From Rhina ancylostomus (taxonomy: Eukaryota), in the NCBI GenBank assembly GCA_030265395.1, contig JARFYF010000012.1, positions 25,095,174 to 25,159,173 of the forward strand: DNA of 64,000 bases, written 5' to 3'. Both the position numbers and the translations under genes were made by a program. The notes beneath the pieces were generated by a model. The model worked only from the letters and a program-made list of their open reading frames with translations. It was not told the DNA's origin and searched no databases. Positions 4,237 through 5,079 of the stretch are shown piece by piece. Each line of letters begins with the position of its first letter. Position 1 is the stretch's first letter.

Positions 4237-4552
4237 ATTTACTATGGAATATCAAATATAACTTGTTTGTACAAGGTAGTGTTGTGCCCACCACAAAGGA
4301 ATTTAAGTTAACTTCCGGTCTGATAAGTTGTAAAGCTAATAATTATGTTTTTTTTACTGATTTGTTCATTGTAATGTGGCTATATCCACACCTATTAAGC
4401 ACCAAGACATTGTGTCAGAAAATTTAAAAAGTAATTAAGATTGAGCTCAGCATTTTAAACATTAAATTTCATTTTTATTTAAATGAAAACAGAAAAGTGT
4501 GTATTTTATTGCTTAGTTTATGATTTTGACATTTTTTTCCTTTTCCTCATAG

Positions 4553-4752
4553 GCCCAAAGAAACCTAAAATAGATAAAATTTCACTGTCAAGCAATAATG
4601 CCATTCGCATTATATGTCAGGGCCTAACTCCTGAGCAGTGGAATGGAAACAAATATGAATATATCGTCGAAACAGAAAATATATCCATCAAGAACAGGAG
4701 CTGTGAATTTGAATTGAAAAACTTGGATTATCTGAAAAAATACAGTATAAAT
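4553..4752 (+). other. Isolated exon encoding a fibronectin type III domain, CD45/PTPRC-like
   Basis: Polypyrimidine acceptor (tttttttccttttcctcatAG, AG at 4551-4552), 200 nt open frame, donor GTAACA at 4753. Peptide (G)PKKPKIDKISLSSNNAIRIICQGLTPEQWNGNKYEYIVETENISIKNRSCEFELKNLDYLKKYSIN has the S-x-N-x5-C ... NG ... C-x-F-x3-(D/N)-L-x-Y-x3-Y pattern of the membrane-proximal CD45 FN3 domain as I recall it. Confidence 0.65.
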
Positions 4753-5079
4753 GTAACAGGATTCTGTTGAATAGACATATTTCAGTTTCTGTGAAGCACA
4801 CTGTGGACTTATACTAACACACCTGTTGTTCTATTCCAGGTGTTTGCTAAGAATGAAGTTTGTACTGGTGAACCTGCATCTAGAATTATTGCCACTCTAT
4901 GTAAGTAAAATACTTTCTAAAATCAAATTTTGCCAACACCACCTGGTGGGAAGAATTCCACTGTTTGTCTGTCCTACCAGAACTGCAAAAGGCTCCCCTG
5001 AACTGAGTGCAAATAATTTCAGTTCCCATTGTTGGTGAACCTTTCCAGCTTTCATTGATGCACTAGGCTCATTGATAAG

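What the first reader, a model, noticed from the sequence alone, without database searches (positions are those of the whole stretch)
4530..4760. Orphan CD45/PTPRC-like FN3 exon, intact and antisense inside EBF3 intron 6
Seen: a strong polypyrimidine-AG acceptor, a 200-nt stop-free exon (phase 1 in, phase 0 out), a GTAACA donor and an N-glycosylation sequon-bearing FN3-like peptide. It is surrounded by decayed LINEs and SINEs. Knowledge (from memory): the peptide lines up with the membrane-proximal FN3 domain of CD45 (human SDNSMHVKC..NG..KNCDFRVKDLQYSTDYTFK versus SNNAIRIIC..NG..RSCEFELKNLDYLKKYSIN), including both cysteines, and PTPRC is not an EBF3 neighbour in human. I found no transmembrane or phosphatase exons in the window. 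Inference: this is (a) a genomic fragment of CD45 moved with its intron flanks by DNA-level duplication, LINE transduction or element capture, (b) one exon of an unannotated nested antisense gene encoding a CD45-like ectodomain, or (c) a mis-assembly. Retained splice sites argue against a processed pseudogene.
Basis: partly seen in the sequence, partly recalled or inferred. Interest (0 to 1): 0.8.

Follow-up and report, generated by a model that had tools for sequence, protein, structure and literature searches.

The report
Misplaced CD45 exons: an assembly error
Two intact exons of the immune gene CD45 (PTPRC) sit inside an EBF gene intron in this cartilaginous-fish assembly, while its CD45 gene on another chromosome lacks exactly these two exons at a gap, so they were likely misplaced by the genome assembly and are not a new nested gene.

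Summary
Exon A (4553-4752) and exon B (4840-4900), separated by an 87-nt intron, encode one whole FN3 domain. It is 59-62% identical to the membrane-proximal FN3 of sawfish PTPRC. The genome's own PTPRC lies on another contig (C63). It has matches for the rest of the protein but not for this domain, and a 9,552-N run lies exactly where the two exons belong. Phases and split codons fit on both sides (Cys in, Tyr out), giving a stop-free frame. The window segment starts, right after a 100-N gap, in the same LINE 3' region and orientation in which the native gap's left edge stops, about 21 nt further on; it is the only such edge of 150 checked. No second copy was found. Best reading: a piece of PTPRC mis-joined into EBF intron 6 by the assembly (0.9). 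The right-hand join was not located (between about 5,550 and 16,560). A real duplicate whose parent is hidden under the N run is not excluded. Low interest.

The parts
4553..4752 (+). Exon A: first part of the membrane-proximal FN3 (d4) of PTPRC/CD45; 200 nt, phase 1 in, phase 0 out
   Evidence: 63% to Pristis PTPRC aa 423-486; its first two bases complete a Cys codon with the last base of the native upstream exon
4753..4839 (+). 87-nt intron: GTAACA donor, TACTAAC branch point at 4812-4818, pyrimidine-rich AG acceptor; carries an in-frame stop
   Evidence: tblastn with Pristis PTPRC opens a 29-aa gap exactly here
4840..4900 (+).
   Evidence: its last base completes a Tyr codon with the first two bases of the native transmembrane exon
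4530..4552 (+). Polypyrimidine tract and AG acceptor of exon A
2429..2528 (.). 100-N run; likely the left boundary of the misplaced segment (assembly gap or mask cannot be told apart)
   Evidence: the repeats on its two sides are different elements
2529..2687 (+). 3' end of a LINE-like repeat that continues, about 21 nt further along the element and in the same orientation, the repeat in which the native PTPRC contig stops at C63:48,741,431
5445..6678 (+). 1.2-kb high-copy LINE-like element (80-85% to other copies); candidate site of the right-hand mis-join, not shown
10118..10185 (.). (TG)n(AG)n microsatellite; second candidate site of the right-hand mis-join, not shown
   Evidence: inconclusive
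16561..16641 (.). Conserved non-coding element shared with intron 6 of another EBF locus; marks true EBF intron and bounds the misplaced segment on the right
   Evidence: 78% to C74:53,257,613-694, E 9e-7; exon positions
19066..19290 (.). Conserved non-coding element shared with intron 6 of two other EBF loci
   Evidence: C74 79% E 1e-25; C62 70% E 3e-15
22565..22678 (-). EBF exon 6 (COE1_DBD match); intron 6 runs from here to exon 7 about 52 kb left of the window

Best explanation
The two exons are likely the genome's own, single-copy PTPRC (CD45) exons for the membrane-proximal FN3 domain, which the assembly likely cut out of the PTPRC locus on C63 (leaving an N run there) and mis-joined into EBF intron 6 on C12. 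Shown: the native gene has no match for this domain, and a 9,552-N run lies between the flanking exons; phases and split codons fit; the left ends meet in register in one repeat family. Inferred: in the animal, the upstream FN3 exon, exon A, exon B and the transmembrane exon are spliced into an ordinary CD45 mRNA, in which this domain would be the last rigid spacer above the membrane. Also inferred: the contig broke in a LINE copy on the left and was mis-joined at a repeat on the right, between about 5,550 and 16,560.
For: (1) Native PTPRC at C63:48.70-48.79 Mb, minus strand. With stingray PTPRC, aa 590-682 have no match; with sawfish PTPRC, aa 421-501 have none, while the window pair matches aa 423-506 at E 8e-18. 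The other unmatched folded-domain stretch, aa 279-321, has a probable diverged exon at C63:48,751,005-48,750,880 (weak score). (2) The N run 48,731,879-48,741,430 lies between the upstream FN3 exon (ends near 48,743,421) and the TM exon (starts near 48,731,566). (3) Splice fit: the native exon's last base plus exon A's first two give Cys; exon B's last base plus the TM exon's first two give Tyr. The four exons read in one frame with 0 stops and align with PTPRC relatives across both joins, with the same Cys and Tyr as sawfish. (4) Same evolutionary distance: window domain 59% (51 of 86) to sawfish, native upstream exon 63% (27 of 43); both are sister to sawfish in trees of 20 rows (87/93 and 96/84). 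(5) Left edge in register, about 21 nt missing; 6 of 150 gap edges in the fetched DNA lie in this repeat region, and only window 2529 continues the native edge. (6) No second copy: DNA search 1 match, itself; protein search next best E 1.0. (7) The assembly is gappy: 28 N runs in 150 kb at PTPRC, 42 in the 200 kb left of the window. (8) Weak hint only: X1 contig depth over the exons is 6.4 and 6.6, against 5.6 on the EBF side and 4.4-8.7 elsewhere, so no doubling (contig depth is not a copy number, and X1 may be the assembly's own sample).
Against: The right-hand join was not found. There is no N between 2529 and 20,369, and the repeat at the native gap's right edge has no counterpart in 2529-20,369, so part of the gap's content is unaccounted for. 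The LINE at 5445-6678 shows no identity switch against 11 other copies. No read or contig was shown to join window DNA to C63. The N run could be a withheld stretch rather than a gap, and a copy beneath it would be invisible to my searches. Skipping both exons also keeps the frame, so frame alone does not prove they are used. One listed difference in two relatives' contigs (4657) would make a stop if alone; sawfish has Leu there and 518 rows of that table were not shown, so this is unresolved.
Confidence: 0.9

Rival explanations
1. Real segmental duplication: the native PTPRC keeps its exons (hidden in the N run, or collapsed with the copy), and a second copy with its flanks really lies in EBF intron 6, as a silent fragment or part of an antisense transcript.
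For: The window is N-free from 2529 through the exons into true EBF intron. The content of the N run cannot be read. Splice sites and frame are intact.
Against: The segment's left end coincides within about 21 nt with the native gap edge, inside one repeat and right after a 100-N run; a duplication breakpoint has no reason to do that. Contig depth over the exons is not doubled (weak). The domain is as close to sawfish as its native neighbour is. No other PTPRC-like exon lies within 264 kb.
Confidence: 0.06
2. Real relocation: the two exons moved to EBF intron 6 and left PTPRC, so this lineage makes a CD45 with one FN3 domain fewer (the skip is phase 1 to phase 1 and in frame).
For: The native locus lacks the exons and the skip is stop-free. 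Only one copy was found.
Against: A true loss would not need an N run at that very place. All 19 PTPRC relatives aligned have this domain. Exons removed from their gene should decay, yet both keep a full frame, four good splice sites and a branch point. A relative's contig holds both exons in the same flanks, 3550-5502 (X5).
Confidence: 0.03
3. Exons of an unannotated, independent CD45-like gene nested antisense in EBF intron 6.
For: Intact exons on the strand opposite to EBF.
Against: No signal-peptide, other FN3, TM or phosphatase exon matches PTPRC in 264 kb. The domain groups as the ortholog of sawfish PTPRC d4, not as an old paralog, and it fits the hole in the native gene.
Confidence: 0.01

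Closest known systems
PTPRC/CD45 of Pristis pectinata (P0042), aa 421-507, membrane-proximal FN3
   Same: 59-62% identity over the whole 86-aa domain; same two Cys in exon A and the Cys in exon B; same residues at both exon joins; sister in the tree.
   Different: Nothing beyond ordinary divergence of a fast-evolving ectodomain; only its place in this assembly differs.
Human CD45 ectodomain d1-d4 (PDB 5FMV, 8VSE)
   Same: Best PDB matches, to the last domain of the 5FMV chain (aa 272-330 of 361). Passages of PMC11969063 describe d1-d4 as four FN3-related domains cross-linked by disulfides, with very low sequence conservation.
   Different: Weak match on its own (E 0.05-0.1); about 28% identity to macaque.
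Repeat-mediated mis-join in a fragmented assembly (general knowledge, recalled)
   Same: Contig edges in high-copy repeats, a gap at the donor locus, and a single copy of the displaced unique DNA.
   Different: The right-hand join is not marked by N and was not located.

Membership tests
PTPRC/CD45 membrane-proximal FN3 exons (ortholog) | Best whole-domain match is PTPRC, at the position just before the TM segment | tested here: met
PTPRC/CD45 membrane-proximal FN3 exons (ortholog) | FN3 domain | tested here: met
   By homology only: Pfam fn3 hits the aligned region of Mobula (382-455) and Heterodontus (646-710) PTPRC; Atlas neighbours are fn3 at 0.84-0.87, a lead only. The exon alone gave 0 Pfam hits. 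No structure was predicted.
PTPRC/CD45 membrane-proximal FN3 exons (ortholog) | Exon phases and split codons compatible with the flanking native exons | tested here: met
   phase 1-0 and 0-1, Cys and Tyr restored, 0 stops
PTPRC/CD45 membrane-proximal FN3 exons (ortholog) | Divergence and tree position equal to the native neighbouring exon | tested here: met
   59% versus 63% to sawfish; sister in both trees (support 87/93, not starred, and 96/84)
PTPRC/CD45 membrane-proximal FN3 exons (ortholog) | Spliced into the PTPRC mRNA | not testable with these tools
   No RNA run was available to lay
Mis-assembled segment | Donor locus lacks the segment and has a gap at that place | tested here: met
   gap and withheld stretch cannot be told apart
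Mis-assembled segment | Segment ends continue the donor gap edges | tested here: inconclusive
   Left end met at the level of repeat family, orientation and register; right end not found
Mis-assembled segment | Reads link the segment to the donor locus and not to the host locus | tested here: inconclusive
   Only short contigs were available; no listed piece decides it
Segmental duplicate or transduced gene fragment | A parent copy elsewhere in the genome | tested here: not met
   a copy under the N run would be missed
Nested antisense gene | Further exons of the same gene within the host intron | tested here: not met
   one PTPRC match in 264 kb; exons unrelated to PTPRC would not be seen
Processed pseudogene | Introns lost | tested here: not met
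   87-nt intron and both outer splice sites present

The most novel reading that the evidence does not exclude
In this ray lineage the two-exon d4 module of CD45 really lies in EBF intron 6 on another chromosome. Either it is an intact duplicate, or it is the only copy and the animal makes a CD45 shortened by one FN3 domain, a natural test of the size-exclusion model of CD45 action.
Probability: 0.08. Interest if true: 0.65.

Novelty: not a real feature. Interest (0 to 1): 0.07.

Why it matters
Biologically it is ordinary: two normal CD45 exons. The practical points are two. An annotation of this assembly would report a CD45 lacking its membrane-proximal FN3 (the skip is in frame, so the false model looks healthy) plus an 'orphan' exon pair in an EBF intron. 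And other orphan-exon findings in this genome should first be checked against gaps at the native locus. If the placement were real, it would be an unusual inter-chromosomal move of an intact exon module and possibly a naturally shortened CD45.

Tried and rejected
Pfam on exon A and exon B separately: 0 families. Word-indexed protein search with exon A, longer proteins: 37 candidates, 0 hits. Pfam CD45 family PF12567 in the genome: 5 matches, 0 over cut-off. One search gave 23 hits; 22 are short multi-stretch matches. I examined 4 of these 22 (P0001, P0012, P0017, P0020); three carry bacterial secretion-signal domains and all look like repeat proteins, so they were rejected as chance; the other 18 were not examined. 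Earlier findings of this scan near this place: none. No RNA holder listed. Contigs of 4 of the 14 listed runs laid on 1300-10,100: no listed piece bridges the 100-N run or the LINE at 5445-6678, and pieces stop about 40 nt past 10,100; the tables were heavily cut and absence of cover proves nothing. The repeat at the native right edge (40 of 2,323 candidates scored, about 90% identical) has no counterpart in the window segment. The old repeat at 5085-5445 does not resume after 6678 in 14 copies tested; uninformative, since it may simply be truncated. Identity profile of the LINE against 11 copies: no switch point. Whether the old repeat before the microsatellite continues after it: 0 of 3 copies did; inconclusive. 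The idea that a second PTPRC exon (sawfish aa 279-321) was displaced to small contig C18154 was rejected: the hit (E 3.9) lies in a repeat with no exon structure, and a probable native exon exists. Papers: no paper holds all of PTPRC, EBF3, nested and cartilaginous; CD45 + shark + fibronectin type III + exon gave 2 irrelevant listings; one search gave nothing used. No structure prediction or complex prediction was run.

Full report
Observation. The window is C12:25,095,174-25,159,173 of a 2.2-Gb assembly in 65,984 contigs. The reported exon is present as described: AG at 4551-4552 after a long pyrimidine tract, 200 stop-free nt (4553-4752), donor GTAACA, two sequons. The EBF DNA-binding-domain family maps exon 6 to 22,565-22,678 on the minus strand and exon 7 about 52 kb left of the window, so the exon is antisense within intron 6 as assembled. 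Reading on, I found a second exon. An 87-nt intron (4753-4839, TACTAAC at 4812-4818) is followed by 61 nt (4840-4900) and a GTAAGT donor. The pair is a phase 1 to phase 1 module encoding 86 residues.

Identity. Pfam found nothing on either exon alone, and the best PDB hits were human CD45 at E 0.05-0.1. A full scan of 1.84 billion representatives gave 23 hits. Only one covered the exon in a single stretch: stingray PTPRC, 45%, E 1.3e-4. A search with that protein's region gave 51 relatives, of which I compared 19. The pair matches sawfish PTPRC best (62% by BLASTP, 51 of 86 aligned columns), in the FN3 just before the transmembrane segment. Pfam calls the aligned region fn3 in Mobula and Heterodontus PTPRC. 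The animal is therefore likely a ray close to sawfishes (inference).

The native gene. Phosphatase-domain hits included one locus, on C63, that matches stingray PTPRC almost letter for letter. tblastn over 150 kb there found exons for the mucin-like region, the outer folded domains, the TM segment and both phosphatase domains, but nothing for stingray aa 590-682. With sawfish PTPRC the unmatched stretch is aa 421-501, whereas in the 264 kb of EBF region (window plus 200 kb to its left) the only match is the window pair, aa 423-506, E 8e-18. A further unmatched stretch, aa 279-321, has a probable diverged exon in place (weak). Between the last outer FN3 exon (ends near 48,743,421) and the TM exon (starts near 48,731,566) lies a run of 9,552 N. 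I cannot tell whether it is an assembly gap or a withheld stretch; both of its edges lie in repeats, as contig ends usually do.

Fit. The native upstream exon ends one base into a codon, and exon A's first two bases make it Cys. Exon B ends one base into a codon, and the TM exon's first two bases make it Tyr. The four exons read without a stop and align with the 19 relatives across both joins; sawfish has the same Cys and Tyr. The skip without the pair is also in frame, which is why a gene model on this assembly would look healthy. The window domain and the native upstream exon are equally far from sawfish (59% and 63%), and each is its sister in a 20-row tree (87/93 and 96/84). DNA and protein searches of the genome found no second copy.

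Left junction. In gene orientation the native contig stops inside the 3' region of a LINE-like repeat (family label recalled, not tested). Window 2529, the first base after a 100-N run, starts in the same family and orientation; an intact local copy carrying both halves shows about 21 nt missing between them. The repeat left of the 100-N run (2303-2428) is a different element. Of 150 gap edges in the fetched DNA, 6 match this repeat region and only 2529 is in register with the native edge (one reference copy, 60-nt edges). This is family-level evidence, not a read-level link.

Right junction. Not located. Conserved non-coding elements at 16,561-16,641 and 19,066-19,290 match intron 6 of other EBF loci, in the same order on C74, so that part is true EBF intron. 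Contigs of run X1 (0-1 differences; possibly the assembly's own sample) cover 3660-4600 and 4646-5549, and one contig of a relative (X5, about 93%) holds both exons in 3550-5502. The join thus lies between about 5,550 and 16,560, where there is no N. The candidates are the LINE at 5445-6678 and the microsatellite at 10,118-10,185; my tests of both were inconclusive. The repeat at the native gap's right edge has no counterpart in the segment, so some of the gap's content is elsewhere or unassembled. X1 contig depth over the exons (6.4, 6.6) is like that elsewhere (4.4-8.7), a weak hint against a collapsed duplicate. One listed difference in relatives X2 and X5 (4657) would be a stop if alone; sawfish has Leu at that residue and most rows of the table were not shown, so this is unresolved.

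How it works. Most likely these are ordinary PTPRC exons that encode d4, the last of the four rigid FN3-related domains of the CD45 ectodomain. The four-domain, disulfide-linked, poorly conserved architecture is described in PMC11969063 (passages read; no supplements consulted). Splicing into the mRNA is inferred from phase and codon fit; it was not observed. The position in EBF intron 6 is likely an artefact of a fragmented assembly (28 N runs in 150 kb at PTPRC, 42 in 200 kb beside the window). Odds: mis-assembly 0.90; real duplicate with the parent hidden in the N run 0.06; real relocation with a shortened CD45 0.03; independent nested gene 0.01.

Novelty. No paper in the searched library holds PTPRC, EBF3, nested and cartilaginous together; the other searches were seen as listings only. 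There is nothing new to claim: the exons are known in kind, and the unusual placement is likely not a real feature. Interest 0.07.

Noticed in passing
   Followed up: yes
window 16,561-16,641 and 19,066-19,290: Non-coding elements shared between intron 6 of this EBF gene and of the EBF loci on C74 (same order and orientation) and C62 (opposite orientation); likely old paralogous enhancers.
   Followed up: partly
G000:C63:48,764,000-48,785,000 (L087-L089): About ten short, similar Ser/Thr-rich matches to the mucin-like region of PTPRC, suggesting tandemly repeated small exons; the stingray protein has 35 isoform records in its cluster.
   Followed up: no
L048 and L052 (G000:C67:8.60 and 8.646 Mb): Two near-identical receptor-type phosphatase exons 45 kb apart on one strand; a tandem duplicate gene or a haplotype duplication in the assembly.
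   Followed up: no
L095 (G000:C63:48,731,732-48,731,878): Tail of a young, high-copy repeat (about 90% between copies, 2,323 candidates) at the right edge of the native gap; Penelope-like by recall, not tested.
   Followed up: partly
window 10,777-10,860: 84-nt imperfect inverted repeat matching itself on the opposite strand at 88%.
   Followed up: no
window 24,000-38,000: CpG-rich stretch (41-82 CpG per 2 kb against 2-21 elsewhere) over the first EBF exons and upstream DNA.
   Followed up: no
window 7433-7903: A 1,624-nt contig of run X3 (a relative) fits here only with its letters 1144-1600; the first 1,143 letters lie elsewhere, perhaps an insertion in that species.
   Followed up: no
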